From IMG/VR virus record IMGVR_UViG_3300044712_001401, positions 1-64,000 of that record: 64,000 nucleotides of DNA. One strand, 5' to 3'. Both the position numbers and the translations under genes were made by a program. Origin of the DNA: a virus. The notes below the pieces were generated by a model. It was not told the DNA's origin. It searched no databases and was given only the letters and a program-made list of their open reading frames with translations. Below are positions 32,946 through 38,100 of the stretch, in pieces (position 1 is the stretch's first letter; each line of letters opens with the position of its first letter).

Positions 32946-35153
32946 ATGTCGGATTTTTTAGCGGACGCGCGACGCTCCGCGCGTTCGCGGGTGGAGATGG
33001 CTCGGCGGTCGTTTGGGCAGTCGCTGCGCAAGGCAACGAGCGGTGGCGCAGTTGTCGGCGACGCGTCCGAGCTTGGGCTCATGTCGTCGCTCGGAACGTC
33101 TGACGGATTCTCGTTTGGCGACAAAGGAGCGAGTCAAGCTCGACTCGCTCTGGCCGAGTTTCGGTCGTGGGTCTATGTCTGCGTAAACGCGATCGCGGGG
33201 CGTCTGTCGTCGCAACCGATGGTCGCCTGCCTTGTGTCGGACGACCAAAAGTCAAAGACGGGCAAGCGTAACTCGCGGCTTGACGTCACGCGGAAAAGAA
33301 AAGTTCCGGAATCGATTCGCGCGAAACTCCCAACCGCTTTCAGCATGGAGATTCTCACGAGCGGCGATATCGTCCGGACGTTAGAGCAACCCAACCCGGT
33401 GCAATCGCGCTCGCAGTTCTTGTACTTTTCGGCGGCGTCGCTGCTTTTGTGCGGAGAGTGTTATTGGGTCGCTGGGCTCGCAACTCCAGACGAAAGCGAC
33501 CAGACGAGCGACGATGGGCCGCGCGTGGAATATTGGGCGATTCCGCGAACGTGGATCAAGCCATTGCATGAGGGGCGGTTATTTTCGGGCTACGAGTTGC
33601 GGACGAGCCCCAACGCCGAACCGATTTTGTTATCGTCTTCGCAGGTCGCTCGGACGTACTTTCCTGATCCGTCGGACATCCGCGCGTGTCGTTCTCCGCT
33701 CCAAGCCGTCGCAACGTCGGTGCGTGTTGACGACCGGCTCCAAGCGAGCCAAGAGCAAGCGTTCGACCGTGGGCTCGATCCGAACCTAATCGTCACGGTG
33801 GGGCGGCTACGCGACGAGGACGGCAAGTTAGGTGATCGTCGTCCTCGTCTGACGGGGAGCCAGCGGCGACAATTGATTCGGGCCGTGCAGGAGGTCTGGG
33901 ACTCGACGGTCAACGAGGGCTACCCTGCCATCGTCGACGGTTTCATTGAGTCGGTACACAAGCTATCCAACACGCCATCCGAAATGGATTGGACCGAGTC
34001 GGGCGACGTAATCAAGCGGCGTATCTTTCAAGCGTTTCGCGTGAACCCCATCATCGTCGGGGAGATTGTCGGAGCGAATCGCGCCCAAGTCGTCGAGGCG
34101 GAGAAGCATTTTTGCGCGAACGCTGTCAACCCCATCGCGTCGGCTCTCTCGGACTCTGCGGATCGGCTCTCGCGTTCGTTTTTCGAGGGCGGCTCGTCGA
34201 CGCGTCTAACCGTATACGTCGAGCAGGCCGAGCCCACGGACCCGGATCTCGATACGCGGCGATGGGGCGACGCGCGTAAGCTGGGCGACGTAACGCGAGA
34301 CGAGTATAGAGCCGAGCTATTGGGACTGCCACCACTTGAGGACGACAACGCCACGCGCAACACCCTACTATCGACCGTCGGCGGAATTACGGGCACGGTC
34401 CAGGTTGTCACGGCGGTCGGGCAAGGCATGGTGCGCCCCGAACAAGCCCAAGCGATGTTGGAGCTATTTCTCGAAATTCCTCCGGACGTCGCGGGCCGAA
34501 TTGCCGGCGTTGGGCAGGCTCCGATCCCGGCTCTGACGCCACCGAATCCGCCGGGCGGACCAGTGCCATCGCCAGCACCGCCAAAGCCGGCCGATCCGGT
34601 GGACGACAACGAGGAGCCACCGCTTGCCGAGGACGCTCCGCCGCAGCCGGACGAGTCGCAGGAGGCGTCGTATGTGGCTCGCTATGACGTCGTACCGCTC
34701 GCGCCGACCCAATCCATGCAAGACGAAGCGGCCGTCGGTCTGGGCTTGCTAGGCGAACGCACGGTGCAAGTTTCGTCGGGGCTGCTGTCGGTGGCTCGTC
34801 GTATTGCCGGCGGAGAGCGATTGCGGGCGATCGAGTGGCGATGGCTTCGCAGCTATCTCGCACGGTGCGGAAACGCTGGGCGCAACGAGCCGGGATGGAA
34901 TCGCGACGAGGCATCTTGGCCGTCGTTGCCGGCGTTGCTCTGGACGTGTTGCGGCGGTGACGCGGCGTTCGTGCGGTCCTCGTACGTGTGCGCGTGTCTC
35001 GATACGGCCGACCGTCGCGAGGCAAAGCGGGAAAAGTTTGCCGGGGCGACGACGACGATTACGCGAGCCGACGTCAAGGCGCTCAATGCCTCGCAGCTCA
35101 ACGCGTTGATTGGAGGGGCTGCCGACCAAATCGGTGGCACGTTTCAAGGCTAG
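32946..35153 (+). CDS. Portal protein (HK97/lambda-like) with Pro-rich linker and extra C-terminal domain
   Basis: WVYVCVNAIA, L.QPNP.QS...F, L.GECYW, SPLQA, I..AF.V.P...G, TRDEYR..LLGLPP. Confidence 0.88.
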   Translation: MSDFLADARRSARSRVEMARRSFGQSLRKATSGGAVVGDASELGLMSSLGTSDGFSFGDKGASQARLALAEFRSWVYVCVNAIAGRLSSQPMVACLVSDDQKSKTGKRNSRLDVTRKRKVPESIRAKLPTAFSMEILTSGDIVRTLEQPNPVQSRSQFLYFSAASLLLCGECYWVAGLATPDESDQTSDDGPRVEYWAIPRTWIKPLHEGRLFSGYELRTSPNAEPILLSSSQVARTYFPDPSDIRACRSPLQAVATSVRVDDRLQASQEQAFDRGLDPNLIVTVGRLRDEDGKLGDRRPRLTGSQRRQLIRAVQEVWDSTVNEGYPAIVDGFIESVHKLSNTPSEMDWTESGDVIKRRIFQAFRVNPIIVGEIVGANRAQVVEAEKHFCANAVNPIASALSDSADRLSRSFFEGGSSTRLTVYVEQAEPTDPDLDTRRWGDARKLGDVTRDEYRAELLGLPPLEDDNATRNTLLSTVGGITGTVQVVTAVGQGMVRPEQAQAMLELFLEIPPDVAGRIAGVGQAPIPALTPPNPPGGPVPSPAPPKPADPVDDNEEPPLAEDAPPQPDESQEASYVARYDVVPLAPTQSMQDEAAVGLGLLGERTVQVSSGLLSVARRIAGGERLRAIEWRWLRSYLARCGNAGRNEPGWNRDEASWPSLPALLWTCCGGDAAFVRSSYVCACLDTADRREAKREKFAGATTTITRADVKALNASQLNALIGGAADQIGGTFQG

Positions 35154-38100
35154 CGTCGAGCAGTTTGTCGCGAGATTCATTGCGGCGAACCCGACATTGA
35201 CGAAGGGGAGCGGAGCAACTCAAGCGTCTCGGCTCGTAAAGATGTTCGACGCGAAATCGGCTCTGGCCGATCTGTCGCGGCGGTGCATTAATCCGCTCGC
35301 GTCAGCGTTCGCGACTGGGGCAATCGTCGAGCGTCGGCTACACCGCGCCGTTTGCGTTGATCACAAATCCGGCGTCAAGACGACGGCCGAGGATATCGCG
35401 AGACGGCTACAAATCGACTTGCCACCGGGGATTTCGATTGGGCAAATGCCGGCGTGGCTCCGCGCTCGCGCGGCCGAGATTATCCACCGGACGTTCCAGG
35501 AGCCCTATTGGCAGCGCATACCCGAGACGACTCGCGACGATATCGAAGTGACGCTCCGCAACTCGATCGACGAGGGGCTCTCCGTCCGGGAAGTCTCGCG
35601 TCAAATCATGGAGCGACACGGGGACCAATACGACCGATGGCGATCCGTCAACGTCGCTCGCACCGAGATGACGAACGCGCTCAACGCCGGGCACGTCGAG
35701 GGGATTCGCCAGACGGCGCAAGAAACCGGCCTGCGAATTGGCAAGGAGTGGGTGAGCGTGCTCGGCACCACGACTCGCGAGACGCACGCGGACGCGGACG
35801 GGCAGCAGACACCGGACGCGGAGGGAAATTTTACATTGGCCGGCTACGAAGTTCCGTGGCCGGGGCACTGGTCGCTGCCAGCGTCCGAGCGTTGCCATTG
35901 TTTCCCGGCGGGTACTCTGGTGCGTTCTATCGGCTCAACGCAAGCCGTGATGCGGGCATGGTATGAAGGCGTTGTCTATGAAATTACGACGGTTGGCGGG
36001 CGGAGACTTTCCGTCACCGAGAACCACCCCGTACTTACCGCGAGTGGATGGGTCGCGGCTGGAAAGCTCAAGATAGGCGACCAGTTGTTCGCCACAACGA
36101 GACAAGTCGAGTCGTCCGTGGCGAATGAACAAATACAAGACGAACCAACCAGAATTGAGCAAATGTTCGAGGCGGCGCGAGAGCGATCCGTTTTTGGTTC
36201 CGGGGCGTCCGGCTACAAACTCCGCCGGTGCAGTCGTCGAGACTTCTACGGCGATGGGGAATTCTCGCAGGGCTATGTCGAGATTGTATTGATCGACAGC
36301 GACCTGCGTGCGGATCGTGAATCCGCAGCCGACAAGGTACGACGAGACCAAGACTTCTCGCGAGTAAACATTTACCTGCCGGAGTTGCTTCGTCATGGCG
36401 CGGCGGCGTCTTCGTTCAATCGGCTCAGTGGACAAGCGGCGAGCGTTCCAAGCGGCAGAAAGGACGTCGTTAGCCAAAGCGGATCGGTCGTCGTCGTCGA
36501 GCCCCGACCAGCGGCTACGTTGCCCATCGGAGTACGAGCGGATTTTGCGGCCGTTGGCTCGCAATCTTTCGGCGAGCCACGGACGACTCACCCCGTACCG
36601 TTCGGCGACGCGCTTAAGGTTCTCGCCTGCGTCGTAGTCGCGGATCATGTCGCTCAAATCGTCGCGGTCAAGTCGGCGTGTCACGTGTACGATCTCCAAA
36701 CTGAAAGCGGCCTGATTGAGGCGGGCACTGGCAATGGTGGTGTAATCGTATCAAATTGTCAATGTAGCGTTATATCGTCCGTCGTCATGGACGAAATCTC
36801 CGACGAGCCAAAGCCGGAACCGACACCGGAACCGGAGCCGACGCCACCGCCGGCAGTCGAGCCACCGCCGGCGCAAGAACCGCAGCCAATCCCGGCGTGG
36901 GAGCCTGGGACGATTCCGACGTCGGACCAACTCGGTGCGATGAGCTACGAGGAACTGCGGCGAGTGCCTGTCGAACACGTCGTTAACTTGCATCCCGAAT
37001 TGAACGACGTACATCAGCGGGTATTGAAAGCGGCGGACAAGTTCGACCGGCTTGGCGGCGCACCGCCGAAGGCGAAGCTCGACAAAGCGGCCGAGGATTA
37101 CAACAAGGCACACAAGAAGGTTTACGAGCTTGAAGCGAAATGGATGCAAGCCAACGAGCGAGGCGACAAGGAAAAGGCGAAGGCGTTGATGGAAAAAATC
37201 GACGCGGCTGCGGCGAAGTTTGAGGCGGCGAAGACCAAGTACGCGGGGATGCTCGACAAGCGATTTAAGGCGAACGAGTTCAAGACACCGGAAGAGGCTC
37301 GGCGGTCTTTCCTGGCATCCGTGGGCGTTCCGAAAGGCGAGCGATTGAAAATCTACGGAGTTAAGGCTCCGATGCATCCGCCAGAATACCGCGTCAACTT
37401 GGAGGATGGCGGGTCCGTCGTCGTCCAGTTTCAGGATCAAAATATGCTGCGGACCAGCACCGGAGATTGGGACCGCAATTCGCACGTTGGCCGACGAATT
37501 GAGGAGGCGAAAAACTTTGTCGAACCACTGATTGCGAAGCGTGGTGTCTTTGCGGAAAGCGAGCGAATTGCCAACGAAGTGGCGAACGTGCGGTTTCATC
37601 TTGGGGAGGAAGGCGTTCGCGCGCATGCGAAAGCTAAAGGGCACGACGTCACGAAATCAGATGCTCCAAACTATCGCGGTGTTTTTATCTCGCCGTCGGA
37701 CGACGTGGGGACTGTGGTGCATGAGCTAGGCCACGTCATCGAAGGGGCTCGCGGCGACGGCATGACCAAACGTGCCGAGGAGTTTCGGCAATATCGCACG
37801 GCGAAGACGCCAGACGTCCCGATGCGAAAGTACAGTCCGTTCTATTCCGAGTGGGAAATTGGCAACGAAGATCGATTTCATGGGGTCTTCGATAGCGACG
37901 CCAAGCCGGGGAAGGTATATGATGAAAAAGACAACGTTGCGAGGCGTGCTGCGTACACCGGCAAAGGCTATGGAATGTATGGCACGGAGCTAACGTCGAT
38001 GGGGCTCGAAGCGATGTATCGCGACCCGTATCGGCTCGCGAAAAACGACCCGGAGTTGTTCAAGTTCGTGATTGGGGTGTTGCGTGGAATCGTCGAGTAG
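35110..38100 (+). CDS. MuF/SPP1 gp7-type head morphogenesis protein with an intein and a C-terminal HExxH domain
   Basis: VARTE...A.NAG, KEW....TRETH..ADGQ, ERCH|intein|CQC; Pro-rich linker; VVHELGHVIE. Start codon uncertain. Confidence 0.88.
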   Translation: MEGLPTKSVARFKASVEQFVARFIAANPTLTKGSGATQASRLVKMFDAKSALADLSRRCINPLASAFATGAIVERRLHRAVCVDHKSGVKTTAEDIARRLQIDLPPGISIGQMPAWLRARAAEIIHRTFQEPYWQRIPETTRDDIEVTLRNSIDEGLSVREVSRQIMERHGDQYDRWRSVNVARTEMTNALNAGHVEGIRQTAQETGLRIGKEWVSVLGTTTRETHADADGQQTPDAEGNFTLAGYEVPWPGHWSLPASERCHCFPAGTLVRSIGSTQAVMRAWYEGVVYEITTVGGRRLSVTENHPVLTASGWVAAGKLKIGDQLFATTRQVESSVANEQIQDEPTRIEQMFEAARERSVFGSGASGYKLRRCSRRDFYGDGEFSQGYVEIVLIDSDLRADRESAADKVRRDQDFSRVNIYLPELLRHGAAASSFNRLSGQAASVPSGRKDVVSQSGSVVVVEPRPAATLPIGVRADFAAVGSQSFGEPRTTHPVPFGDALKVLACVVVADHVAQIVAVKSACHVYDLQTESGLIEAGTGNGGVIVSNCQCSVISSVVMDEISDEPKPEPTPEPEPTPPPAVEPPPAQEPQPIPAWEPGTIPTSDQLGAMSYEELRRVPVEHVVNLHPELNDVHQRVLKAADKFDRLGGAPPKAKLDKAAEDYNKAHKKVYELEAKWMQANERGDKEKAKALMEKIDAAAAKFEAAKTKYAGMLDKRFKANEFKTPEEARRSFLASVGVPKGERLKIYGVKAPMHPPEYRVNLEDGGSVVVQFQDQNMLRTSTGDWDRNSHVGRRIEEAKNFVEPLIAKRGVFAESERIANEVANVRFHLGEEGVRAHAKAKGHDVTKSDAPNYRGVFISPSDDVGTVVHELGHVIEGARGDGMTKRAEEFRQYRTAKTPDVPMRKYSPFYSEWEIGNEDRFHGVFDSDAKPGKVYDEKDNVARRAAYTGKGYGMYGTELTSMGLEAMYRDPYRLAKNDPELFKFVIGVLRGIVE
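35899..36756 (+). mobile_element. Intein (286 aa) inserted in the Cys motif of MuF
   Basis: Block A CFPAGTLV, block B LSVTENHPVLT..GW..AG.L..GD, block F VYDLQT, block G VIVSN followed by Cys(+1). Confidence 0.92.
35935..36684 (-). CDS. HTH + Vsr/DUF559-like PD-(D/E)XK nuclease encoded antisense inside the intein
   Basis: GGAG (36697-36694) 9 nt before GTG 36684; YDAGENLKRVAERYGVSRPWLAERLRANG (HTH); E..V...L...G....QVAVDQYNLDIAL...IAVEV...R...L...GWFVL. Confidence 0.72.
   Translation of the reverse strand: MTRRLDRDDLSDMIRDYDAGENLKRVAERYGVSRPWLAERLRANGRKIRSYSDGQRSRWSGLDDDDRSALANDVLSAAWNARRLSTEPIERRRRRAMTKQLRQVNVYSREVLVSSYLVGCGFTIRTQVAVDQYNLDIALREFPIAVEVSTTAPAEFVAGRPGTKNGSLSRRLEHLLNSGWFVLYLFIRHGRLDLSRCGEQLVAYLELSSRDPSTRGKYGVVLGDGKSPPANRRNFIDNAFIPCPHHGLR

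What the first reader, a model, noticed from the sequence alone, without database searches (positions are those of the whole stretch)
35899..36762. Intein whose candidate homing endonuclease is encoded on the opposite strand
Seen: MuF is interrupted by a 286-aa intein (ERCH|CFPAGT...TENH...VYDLQT...VIVSN|CQC). Its central region on the + strand has no recognisable LAGLIDADG or HNH domain and reads like a shadow translation. The minus strand has an open frame lying wholly inside the intein (GTG 36684 to TGA 35935, 249 aa, codons in exact antiparallel register). It encodes an HTH, a basic helical linker and a Vsr/DUF559-like nuclease pattern (E..V...L...G...QVAVDQYNLDIAL...IAVEV...R...L...GWFVL). 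Established: intein homing endonucleases are normally in frame between splicing blocks B and F, and Vsr-like (EDxHD) nucleases are a known homing endonuclease class. Inference: this is a dual-coding selfish element in which the splicing domain keeps the host protein intact while the mobility nuclease is expressed separately from an antisense gene. Caveats: antisense in-register ORFs are common in GC-rich DNA, and the usual DG..H after EV is absent, so the nuclease may be variant or decayed.
Basis: partly seen in the sequence, partly recalled or inferred. Interest (0 to 1): 0.95.

Follow-up and report, generated by a model that had tools for sequence, protein, structure and literature searches.

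The report
Intein with antisense homing-endonuclease gene
A self-splicing protein insert (intein) in this phage's head-assembly gene carries, on the opposite DNA strand and codon against codon, a real gene for a DNA-binding Vsr-like nuclease that probably spreads the intein. The layout is genuine and widespread, but a 2025 preprint already described it and this scan has met it many times.

Summary
The MuF-like gene (35110-38100, +) holds a 286-aa class 1 intein (35899-36756). A minus-strand frame (GTG 36684 to TGA 35935, 249 aa) lies inside it in exact codon register.

The antisense frame is a real gene family, not a GC-rich shadow:
- Relatives at 25-35% identity lie antisense inside MuF inteins in 109 phage records and all 27 viral contigs checked, always open and in register, down to 37% GC.
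- In six independent close pairs, the central region has 123 changes silent only in the antisense frame against 28 silent only in the sense frame. Exteins give 57 against 356.
- A profile of the family hits the I-Bth0305I homing-endonuclease catalytic domain (3r3p). An AlphaFold model (pLDDT 80) matches Vsr, 3r3p and DUF559 at Z 9-10.
- The start codon and a Shine-Dalgarno-like GGAG lie opposite intein block F.

Expression, cleavage and splicing remain untested, and the window's copy lacks the usual catalytic His.

It is not new. Gosselin, Arsenault and Gogarten (bioRxiv 10.1101/2025.01.02.630785) reported anti-sense VSR-like endonucleases in actinophage inteins, and in that survey minor capsid proteins carry only non-canonical-HEN inteins. 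This scan holds 135 earlier notes of the same layout on other DNA. I class it as a new member of a known kind.

The parts
35110..38100 (+). MuF-like head-morphogenesis gene (996 aa precursor), the intein's host gene
   Evidence: Pfam Phage_Mu_F aa 144-238, E 1e-9; PHROG head-morphogenesis families
35899..36756 (+). Class 1 intein, 286 aa, inserted before the first Cys of the MuF C-x-C motif (ERCH|C...N|CQC)
   Evidence: Boundaries. Intein_splicing and PT-HINT hits lie below Pfam's cut-off. Aa 26-94 match solved inteins (PI-MtuI, DnaB, BIL) at E 2.6e-5 to 1e-3.
36016..36027 (+). Intein block B (T40-E-N-H43)
   Evidence: Sequence. The column is conserved in all relatives. Its shadow gives the invariant antisense Y223 and V225.
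36682..36699 (+). Intein block F (H262-V-Y-D-L-Q)
   Evidence: Sequence; GHVYDL/GHVYNL in relatives
36742..36759 (+). Intein block G (VIVSN) and the +1 Cys of the C-extein
   Evidence: Sequence
35935..36684 (-). Antisense homing-endonuclease gene: GTG 36684-36682 to TGA 35937-35935, 249 aa (the frame is also open from TTG 36699)
   Evidence: The GTG aligns with the ATG of relatives. A profile built without the window scores the window's antisense translation 86 bits and its sense translation 35 bits.
36694..36697 (-). Shine-Dalgarno-like GGAG, 9 nt before the GTG, lying opposite the block F Asp-Leu codons and the first base of the next (Gln) codon
   Evidence: Sequence. Relatives carry GAGGT or AAGGT at the same place.
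36556..36666 (-). Helix-turn-helix DNA-binding domain (antisense aa 12-48)
   Evidence: Pfam HTH_23 E 0.0034 in the window; HTH_7 in 10 of 23 relatives. AF2 pLDDT about 91-96. VIA Z 5-6 to HTH domains.
36379..36534 (-). Helical linker or second DNA-contact region (antisense aa 56-107) holding the family's SEAEKLKW...AAH.A.RG consensus stretch
   Evidence: Alignment A3 and AF2 helices. No fold match.
36019..36372 (-). Vsr/DUF559-like nuclease domain (antisense aa 110-227). Candidate active-site residues: E115 (36355-36357), D141 (36277-36279), E152 (36244-36246), R176 (36172-36174).
   Evidence: Profile hits 3r3p E 9.4e-5 and 3hrl E 1.8e-4. VIA Z 10.1 (1cw0), 9.6 (3r3p), 9.0 (3hrl). Conserved columns: E115 and D141 are invariant; E152 and R176 are invariant or nearly invariant, because the E column is alignment-register dependent and R176 is at 90% or more in A3.
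36058..36180 (.). Two-strand overlap of homology-supported domains: intein aa 54-94 (N-terminal splicing domain) against nuclease aa 174-214
   Evidence: Ranges of the PDB matches on each strand. Substitutions here are 41 silent only in the antisense frame against 15 silent only in the sense frame.

Best explanation
This is a composite selfish element. On the + strand, a class 1 intein sits in the most conserved motif of the MuF head-assembly protein, just before the first Cys of C-x-C. It is translated straight through and splices itself out, so MuF stays functional. On the - strand, the same DNA encodes a separate 249-aa protein in the same codon register. That protein has an N-terminal helix-turn-helix, a helical linker and a Vsr/DUF559-type nuclease domain related to the EDxHD homing endonuclease I-Bth0305I.

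The sense frame stays open because the nuclease gene never uses TTA, CTA or TCA. The antisense frame stays open because the sense frame never uses them either. The nuclease's GTG start is the complement of the block F His codon. Its ribosome-binding GGAG lies opposite the block F Asp-Leu codons and the first base of the following Gln codon.

The inferred mechanism is as follows. The nuclease is made from an antisense transcript during mixed infection and cuts intein-less MuF alleles at or near the DNA of the C-x-C motif. Repair then copies the intein together with the nuclease gene into the cut allele.

Shown here: the anatomy, the fold, family-wide purifying selection on the antisense frame, and presence/absence polymorphism in relatives. 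Inferred: expression, cleavage, target site and splicing.
For: (1) Anatomy and register.

(2) The antisense protein has relatives at 25-33% identity over 85-98% of its length in 109 phage records. All nine loci fetched lie opposite a MuF or head-morphogenesis CDS. All 27 viral-contig loci are open for 222-255 aa and in register at GC 0.37-0.67. Chance openness is 1e-3 to 2e-7 in the AT-rich loci.

(3) Substitutions in six independent close pairs, counted as silent only in the antisense frame against silent only in the sense frame:
- antisense aa 13-144: 123 against 28 (p 2e-15)
- antisense aa 145-204: 52 against 17
- block B side: 19 against 30
- extein control: 57 against 356
The first pairwise look gave the same picture.

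(4) Across 23 distant members, antisense codon position 1 is more conserved than position 3 over aa 13-144, and the order reverses over aa 205-252.

(5) Fold: AF2 with 23 sequences gives pLDDT 79.8. The profile hits 3r3p and 3hrl. Foldseek's top hits are 3r3p and 1vsr. VIA gives Z 9-10.

(6) A free-standing relative exists in Acinetobacter phages (hhalign probability 99.9, E 2.7e-31).

(7) The start codon and SD-like motif are conserved opposite block F.

(8) Mobility in relatives: 505 Guernseyvirinae-type records match the LSPA1 MuF gene, but only 70 hold the intein. The intein is less diverged than its exteins.
Against: There is no evidence of transcription or translation of the antisense gene, and no convincing sigma-70 promoter upstream of it in the window.

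The window's copy lacks the His found within ten residues after the conserved Glu in 115 of 145 family representatives. It carries a longer, low-confidence loop there instead (aa 160-169, pLDDT < 50).

The I-Bth0305I Asp222 equivalent is not conserved.

No close relative of the window's own element was found, so selection and mobility in this lineage could not be measured.

In this GC-rich window, an intact frame alone has about a 0.1 chance probability.
Confidence: 0.8

Rival explanations
1. The family is real, but the window's own nuclease is inactive or decaying. On this reading the intein is now only inherited vertically and the antisense frame is open by GC-rich inertia.
For: The usual His is missing and the post-Glu loop is 8 residues longer with low confidence. 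The chance of an open frame at this GC content is about 0.1. No promoter was found. No relatives were available to test selection in this lineage.
Against: Every family-invariant residue is kept (G25, R54, A83, E115, Y138, N139, D141, Y223), and E152, R176 and G184 are kept as well. The start codon and SD-like motif are intact. A profile built without the window still scores it 86 bits. The His-less Salmonella and Aaphi23-type clades are under the same antisense purifying selection, and the Salmonella clade is sporadically distributed.
Confidence: 0.15
2. The antisense protein is expressed but does not drive homing. It might, for example, act as a DNA-binding regulator or as a nuclease used against competing phages or the host.
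For: The active site departs from EDxHD. HTH domains are generic. No cleavage data exist.
Against: The family is found almost only inside MuF inteins or, when free-standing, abutting the MuF C-x-C codons as a presence/absence insertion with a replaced target segment. That pattern is what homing predicts. The closest solved relative is a proven homing endonuclease.
Confidence: 0.04
3. The antisense ORF is only the mirror image of a conserved sense-strand domain, with no gene on the minus strand.
For: Codon-registered antisense frames are commonly open in GC-rich DNA. Some sense motifs, such as DFHGD and VEIV, look conserved.
Against: Those sense motifs are the complements of VAVEV and YNLD, with the sense third positions frozen. 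Changes silent only in the antisense frame outnumber those silent only in the sense frame by 123 to 28, against 57 to 356 in exteins. The frame is open at 37-45% GC. The antisense translation folds confidently into a known nuclease fold, and a free-standing homologue exists.
Confidence: 0.01

Closest known systems
Inteins with anti-sense VSR-like homing endonucleases in actinobacteriophages (Gosselin, Arsenault and Gogarten, bioRxiv 10.1101/2025.01.02.630785, version of Oct 2025)
   Same: Both are full, contiguous inteins with the nuclease ORF on the opposite strand. Both have a Vsr-like fold with a remote match to 3R3P. In the preprint's survey, minor capsid proteins are among the host proteins of non-canonical-HEN inteins and carry only such inteins. 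The window's protein matches, by tblastn, the antisense strand of MuF-like or minor-capsid genes of actinophages (Gordonia phages Fosterous, Vivi2 and Angelicage, and Rhodococcus phage REQ3).
   Different: The preprint surveys PhagesDB only and rests on structure prediction and phylogeny. It reports no substitution-pattern test and no start or SD analysis, and it states that the second ORFs typically lie outside the splicing domain. Here the element is in an uncultivated ~60% GC virus. The family also occurs in phages of Salmonella, Escherichia, Pseudomonas, Vibrio, Klebsiella, Haemophilus/Aggregatibacter and others. The ORF runs through block B and starts in block F.
I-Bth0305I and the EDxHD homing endonucleases (Taylor et al. 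2011, PMC3239194)
   Same: Both have an N-terminal DNA-binding region followed by a C-terminal Vsr-like nuclease. E170, D196 and the acidic residue after it correspond to E115, D141 and E152.
   Different: I-Bth0305I is encoded in a group I intron on the sense strand. In the window its His213 has no counterpart, and its Asp222 equivalent is not conserved in this family.
'Fractured genes': split inteins with a free-standing Vsr-like or GIY-YIG endonuclease gene between the halves (Dassa et al. 2009, PMC2677866)
   Same: A free-standing type of Vsr-like endonuclease gene sits at the endonuclease insertion point of an intein in a phage gene.
   Different: In fractured genes the endonuclease lies on the same strand and breaks the host gene into two genes joined by trans-splicing. 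Here the nuclease gene is inverted, the host frame reads through it, and the intein stays contiguous.
Inteins with anti-sense LAGLIDADG endonucleases (Gorbalenya 1998 and Gogarten et al. 2002, as cited in the preprint)
   Same: The endonuclease ORF lies on the strand opposite a full intein.
   Different: The nuclease belongs to a different family and the host genes differ (Synechocystis dnaX, Chloroflexus SpoVR-like). I know these only through the preprint's citations; I did not read the originals.
Free-standing homing-endonuclease genes next to their target, as in T4-type phages (PMC2988022; from my own knowledge)
   Same: The Acinetobacter phage relative is an ~890-bp presence/absence gene abutting the MuF C-x-C codons. 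The adjacent target segment is replaced in the allele that carries it.
   Different: That form needs no intein, because the MuF gene ends just after the motif. In the window MuF continues for about 450 more residues.

Membership tests
Class 1 intein (HINT fold) | Cys/Ser at position 1 and block A | tested here: met
   C1-F-P-A-G-T at 35899
Class 1 intein (HINT fold) | Block B TxxH | tested here: met
   T40-E-N-H43. The column is conserved in relatives.
Class 1 intein (HINT fold) | Blocks F and G ending in Asn, followed by Cys/Ser/Thr +1 | tested here: met
   HVYDLQ ... VIVSN|C. The penultimate residue is Ser, not His.
Class 1 intein (HINT fold) | Sequence homology to HINT domains | tested here: inconclusive
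   Pfam Intein_splicing scores 30.4 bits against a cut-off of 35.8, and PT-HINT 25.5 against 27.7. Solved inteins match aa 26-94 at E 2.6e-5 to 1e-3.
Class 1 intein (HINT fold) | Protein splicing activity | not testable with these tools
   Inferred from intact blocks and from MuF being a head-assembly gene
Anti-sense VSR-like HEN inteins (Gosselin et al. preprint) | Contiguous intein with a complete ORF on the opposite strand inside it | tested here: met
Anti-sense VSR-like HEN inteins (Gosselin et al. preprint) | The antisense product has a Vsr-like nuclease fold with a remote match to 3R3P | tested here: met
Anti-sense VSR-like HEN inteins (Gosselin et al. preprint) | Homology to antisense ORFs in actinophage MuF/minor-capsid genes | tested here: met
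   tblastn to Gordonia phages (E 3e-15), REQ3 and Mycobacterium phage Sejanus. The Fosterous and Sejanus hits were checked to lie opposite the head-morphogenesis/MuF-like (Fosterous) or capsid-maturation-protease (Sejanus) CDS. I did not check which of these phages the preprint lists as VSR-like.
EDxHD homing endonucleases (I-Bth0305I type) | Vsr-like catalytic fold | tested here: met
   VIA Z 9.6, rmsd 3.4, with 93 of 97 residues of 3r3p aligned
EDxHD homing endonucleases (I-Bth0305I type) | Glu and Mg-binding Asp (E170, D196) | tested here: met
   E115 and D141, invariant in A3 and in 150-152 of 152 representatives
EDxHD homing endonucleases (I-Bth0305I type) | General-base His (H213) | tested here: not met
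   The window has no His in the ten residues after E152. The His is present in 115 of 145 representatives.
EDxHD homing endonucleases (I-Bth0305I type) | Second Asp (D222) | tested here: inconclusive
   By hand reading of the alignment, the equivalent position precedes the conserved R176 and is not acidic in the window. The alignment there is loose.
EDxHD homing endonucleases (I-Bth0305I type) | Site-specific double-strand cleavage next to the insertion site | not testable with these tools
   No assay was possible.
Pfam DUF559 (PF04480) / MTES_1575 (PF18741) | Match above the curated cut-off | tested here: not met
   The window scores MTES_1575 at E 0.21, 12.1 bits against a 38.2 cut-off. Among 23 relatives, 8 hit MTES_1575 (best E 5e-6) and 1 hits DUF559.
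Fractured gene / split intein (Dassa et al.) | Host gene broken into two separately translated genes | tested here: not met
   The sense frame is continuous from 35110 to 38100

The most novel reading that the evidence does not exclude
The intein and the inverted nuclease gene are not simply nested; they are interlocked codon by codon. The last third of the nuclease fold is encoded opposite the N-terminal splicing domain (about 40 codons with homology-supported folds on both strands, running on through block B). The nuclease's start codon and ribosome-binding site are the complements of the block F His and Asp-Leu codons. The same nuclease family also lives free-standing, already in antisense orientation, at the 3' end of short MuF genes. 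This would mean the orientation predates capture by the intein, and that the family targets the MuF C-x-C codons with or without an intein.
Probability: 0.5. Interest if true: 0.55.

Novelty: new member of a known kind. Interest (0 to 1): 0.35.

Why it matters
The finding shows that a homing endonuclease can be carried by an intein without being part of the intein protein. About 750 bases code on both strands, and standard annotation misses the second gene in well over a hundred phage genomes.

For intein biology it supports the 'splicing first, endonuclease captured later' view. It offers a contiguous counterpart to the fractured-gene and split-intein route.

In practice, inteins filed as endonuclease-less or decaying should be re-examined on the opposite strand. 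The family may also be a source of compact HTH-plus-Vsr nucleases with long targets. The credit for the architecture belongs to the 2025 preprint. This window adds one more, non-actinophage-like example. The substitution test used here gives direct evidence of selection on the antisense frame.

Tried and rejected
- Word-indexed protein search with the window's antisense protein found nothing at E <= 1e-3. This is explained by low identity and by gene callers skipping antisense ORFs.
- The search for related loci with the window's protein in viral contigs and genome contigs gave no confirmed relative.
- AF2 on the single sequence was uninformative beyond the HTH (pLDDT 41.7).
I rebuilt it from related-loci loci.
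- RNA evidence: no RNA holder was listed for window:35110-38100.
The Val/Met alternation at the column opposite the block B His codon (V118, M32) suggests most of them are themselves intein-embedded antisense ORFs.
- Promoter scan: the only sigma-70-like site on the minus strand (36671..36644) lies inside the ORF. A perfect TTGACA at 36762-36757, opposite the +1/+2 extein codons, has no good -10 element and is not conserved in relatives. I make no promoter claim.
- Literature searches for antisense or opposite-strand endonucleases in inteins and for MuF inteins found nothing. The EDxHD search found the preprint.
Full report
**What is there**

The window is part of an 89-kb IMG/VR virus record. 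The + ORF 35110..38100 (996 aa) follows the portal gene. It carries a Pfam Phage_Mu_F domain at aa 144-238 and matches PHROG head-morphogenesis families.

At aa 264 the MuF sequence is interrupted by CFPAGT... and resumes after ...VIVSN|CQC. The insert is 286 aa, nt 35899-36756. It has the marks of a class 1 intein:
- Cys1
- block B T40-E-N-H43
- block F HVYDLQ
- terminal Asn followed by Cys

The Pfam intein models match both ends just under their cut-offs, with a long unmatched middle. Aa 26-94 match solved inteins (PI-MtuI mini-intein, DnaB intein, a BIL domain) at E 2.6e-5 to 1e-3. No LAGLIDADG or HNH model matches the sense frame at E <= 1.

On the minus strand a frame is open from 36699 to the TGA at 35937-35935. 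It gives 249 aa from the GTG at 36684, and its codon boundaries coincide with the sense codons.

**Is the antisense frame more than chance?**

In this window alone, hardly. The three sense codons that read as stops backwards (TTA, CTA, TCA) make up only 0.9% of the extein codons. A 254-codon open antisense frame therefore has a probability of about 0.1. The case rests on relatives.

tblastn of the antisense protein against 50,697 phage records finds 109 records at 25-33% identity over 85-98% of its length, with E values down to 2e-21. Their hosts include Salmonella, Escherichia, Pseudomonas, Gordonia, Vibrio, Idiomarinaceae, Haemophilus/Aggregatibacter, Rhodococcus, Mycobacterium and Pantoea. 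Klebsiella, Edwardsiella and Acinetobacter phages appear with a second query.

In every locus I fetched, the match lies opposite an annotated MuF, head-morphogenesis or minor-capsid CDS. Phage Snoke's annotators had marked the intein but not the antisense gene.

In 27 further viral-contig loci the antisense frame is open for 222-255 aa and always in codon register with the MuF frame, at GC contents from 0.37 to 0.67. At each locus's own extein codon usage, the chance of that is 1e-3 to 2e-7 in the AT-rich members.

**Which strand is under selection?**

In this register, sense codon position 3 faces antisense position 1 and vice versa, so the two frames make opposite predictions.

Across 23 distant members, antisense position 1 is more conserved than antisense position 3 over antisense aa 13-144. 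The order reverses over aa 205-252, which lie opposite intein aa 63-16.

In six independent close pairs I counted codons that differ at a single base:

| Region | Silent only in antisense frame | Silent only in sense frame |
|---|---|---|
| Antisense aa 13-144 | 123 | 28 |
| Antisense aa 145-204 | 52 | 17 |
| Antisense aa 205-252 | 19 | 30 |
| Flanking exteins, same pairs | 57 | 356 |

The first row departs from 1:1 at p 2e-15 and the second at p 3e-5. Against the exteins, the first row has an odds ratio of 27 (p 1.5e-51). The block B side also differs from the exteins (p 5e-5), as expected if both strands are constrained there.

A profile built from the other 22 members scores the window's central 169 codons at 86 bits in the antisense frame and 35 bits in the sense frame.

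Conserved-looking sense motifs such as DFHGD and VEIV are the complements of VAVEV and YNLD. Their third positions are frozen, which only antisense selection explains.

**What the antisense protein is**

Alignment A3 (23 members) has a clean protein-like pattern. G25, R54, A83, E115, Y138, N139, D141 and Y223 are invariant, and R39, G50, R72, Q132, R176 and G184 are nearly invariant.

With this alignment AlphaFold gives pLDDT 79.8. The model shows:
- a three-helix HTH at aa 12-48
- helices at aa 56-107
- an alpha-beta-beta-beta-alpha-beta-alpha-beta nuclease core at aa 113-227

The A3 profile hits the catalytic domain of the homing endonuclease I-Bth0305I (3r3p, E 9.4e-5) and a DUF559 protein (3hrl, E 1.8e-4). 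Foldseek ranks 3r3p and Vsr first. VIA-align gives Z 10.1 (Vsr-DNA, 1cw0), 9.6 (3r3p, 93 of 97 residues aligned), 9.4 (1vsr) and 9.0 (3hrl, rmsd 2.0). All other rows score Z 6.8 or less, apart from two mitoribosomal protein chains at Z 10.2 and 9.0 whose relation I did not examine.

Reading the alignment against Taylor et al. 2011:
- E115 corresponds to E170.
- D141 corresponds to the Mg-binding D196.
- E152 corresponds to the extra acidic residue of the EDxHD enzymes.
- The general-base His is present in 115 of 145 family representatives but missing in the window, in the Salmonella clade and in the Aaphi23-type clade.
- The last Asp is not conserved.

The protein is therefore a divergent relative of the EDxHD/Vsr/DUF559 nucleases rather than a strict EDxHD member. 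The His-less Salmonella clade is nevertheless under antisense purifying selection and is sporadically distributed, so lack of the His does not by itself mean decay.

An exhaustive profile search of 1.84 billion representative proteins finds 17,261 relatives at E <= 1e-3 and 1,534 at E <= 1e-30. The Val/Met alternation at the column opposite the block B His codon (GTG/ATG against CAC/CAT) suggests that the best 150 are mostly intein-embedded ORFs called on short contigs.

**How the two genes fit together**

Antisense residue n lies opposite intein residue 268 - n.

The GTG start (ATG in most relatives) is the complement of the block F His codon in GHVYDL. The window's GGAG, 9 nt upstream, lies opposite the block F Asp-Leu codons plus the first base of the next codon. 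Relatives carry GAGGT or AAGGT opposite Asp-Leu, about 8 nt before the start.

At the other end, the ORF does not stop at the edge of the endonuclease insertion point. The part of the nuclease that aligns with solved Vsr-like domains reaches aa 215, and the part of the intein that aligns with solved inteins spans aa 26-94. About 40 codons (intein 54-94) therefore have homology-supported folds on both strands.

In that stretch, changes silent only in the antisense frame still dominate (41 against 15). From block B towards the intein's N-terminus, the sense frame dominates (23 against 12). The invariant antisense Y223 and the conserved V225 are the shadows of the block B Pro-Val and His codons.

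I found no convincing promoter for the antisense gene, and no RNA run was listed.

**Evidence on mobility and target, from relatives**

Of 505 phage records matching the LSPA1-type MuF gene, only 70 hold the intein. The rest match in two pieces whose span is shorter by the intein's length. Some of the closest exteins are intein-less.

Within the Salmonella group the intein is much less diverged than its exteins, with 15 changed codons of 148 against 49 of 150. Both observations fit recent horizontal spread.

A free-standing member of the family exists in three Acinetobacter Obolenskvirus phages:
- It is an annotated 297-aa CDS that aligns with the A3 profile at probability 99.9, E 2.7e-31, over 217 columns.
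- It has no long frame on the opposite strand.
- It is convergent with, and overlaps by 7 nt, a short MuF gene that ends 14 residues after its C-x-C motif.
- Eighty of 83 related phages lack it.
- Against phage AbP2 the flanks are 100% and 91% identical. The nuclease gene plus the last ~60 MuF codons are replaced, changing INCRCR to PMCKCR.

[quoted passage not shown] It points to the DNA of the MuF C-x-C motif as the family's target, with or without an intein.

**Comparison with what is known**

Dassa et al. 2009 described Vsr-like endonuclease genes between the halves of split inteins, on the same strand. Taylor et al. 2011 characterised I-Bth0305I.

The preprint of Gosselin, Arsenault and Gogarten reports, among about 800 actinophage inteins, 63 with non-canonical endonucleases. 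These include VSR-like endonucleases on the anti-sense strand with an HHpred match to 3R3P. It states that minor capsid proteins, which are among the host proteins of non-canonical-HEN inteins, carry only such inteins. It credits Gorbalenya 1998 and Gogarten 2002 with anti-sense LAGLIDADG cases. That is the same architecture and, by my tblastn hits to the antisense strand of MuF-like genes in Gordonia phages and REQ3, very likely the same family.

The preprint gives no silent-site test and no start or SD analysis. It covers actinophages only, and it says the second ORFs typically lie outside the splicing domain. This scan's own notes already hold 135 findings of the layout in at least 108 genomes, several of which cite the same preprint. 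I had reached the preprint independently.

**Verdict**

This is a new member of a known, recently described kind.

I put 0.8 on a real, selected antisense homing-endonuclease gene that is, or recently was, functional. I put about 0.15 on this particular copy being inactive. Expression, cleavage, target and splicing are inferred and need the experiments listed under the decisive next steps.

Noticed in passing
L051:455-2055 (Acinetobacter phage vB_AbaM_IME285, MH853786.1); L055 (phage AbP2): A free-standing member of the same HTH+Vsr-like family lies convergent with, and overlaps by 7 nt, the 3' end of a short MuF gene. It is an ~890-bp presence/absence insertion (3 of 83 related phages carry it). 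The last ~60 MuF codons, including the NCRC motif, are replaced in carriers.
   Followed up: yes
Salmonella phages S120 (MH370373.1), vB_SenS_TUMS_E19 (NC_073178.1) and 5sent1 (MT653144.1): hits H166-H168: These MuF genes match the LSPA1 exteins but span 2.1-2.2 kb in three pieces, so they carry a different ~1.0-1.1 kb insert near the same place. It may be another intein or endonuclease type.
   Followed up: no
window 37650-38100 (+), MuF aa ~850-996: The C-terminal extension of the MuF protein contains an HELGH (HExxH) motif. It matches only PHROGs of unknown or minor-head function (phrog_33618, phrog_19443). It may be a MuF-fused metallopeptidase-like cargo domain. It is preceded by a Pro/Glu-rich linker at aa ~555-600.
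   Followed up: no
L003/L005:2514-3188 (+) (Salmonella phage PK1, Escherichia phage Snoke): A second open frame of 225 aa lies on the nuclease strand in another frame. In PK1 it is partly annotated as a hypothetical protein. It is probably spurious and was not examined.
   Followed up: no
window 36757-36762 (-): A perfect TTGACA lies opposite the +1/+2 extein codons (TGT CAA), in a locally AT-rich junction. It has no good -10 element at 16-18 nt, and the motif is not conserved in relatives.
   Followed up: partly
P0001-P0150: Many of the strongest family representatives are 280-440 aa and carry one to four extra N-terminal HTH repeats. One 836-aa protein (P0058) consists of about 16 HTH-like stretches.
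   Followed up: no
window 35110-35153: The MuF ORF as listed from TTG 35110 overlaps the end of the upstream 735-aa ORF (32946..35153, presumably the portal gene) by 44 nt. The true MuF start was not determined.
   Followed up: no
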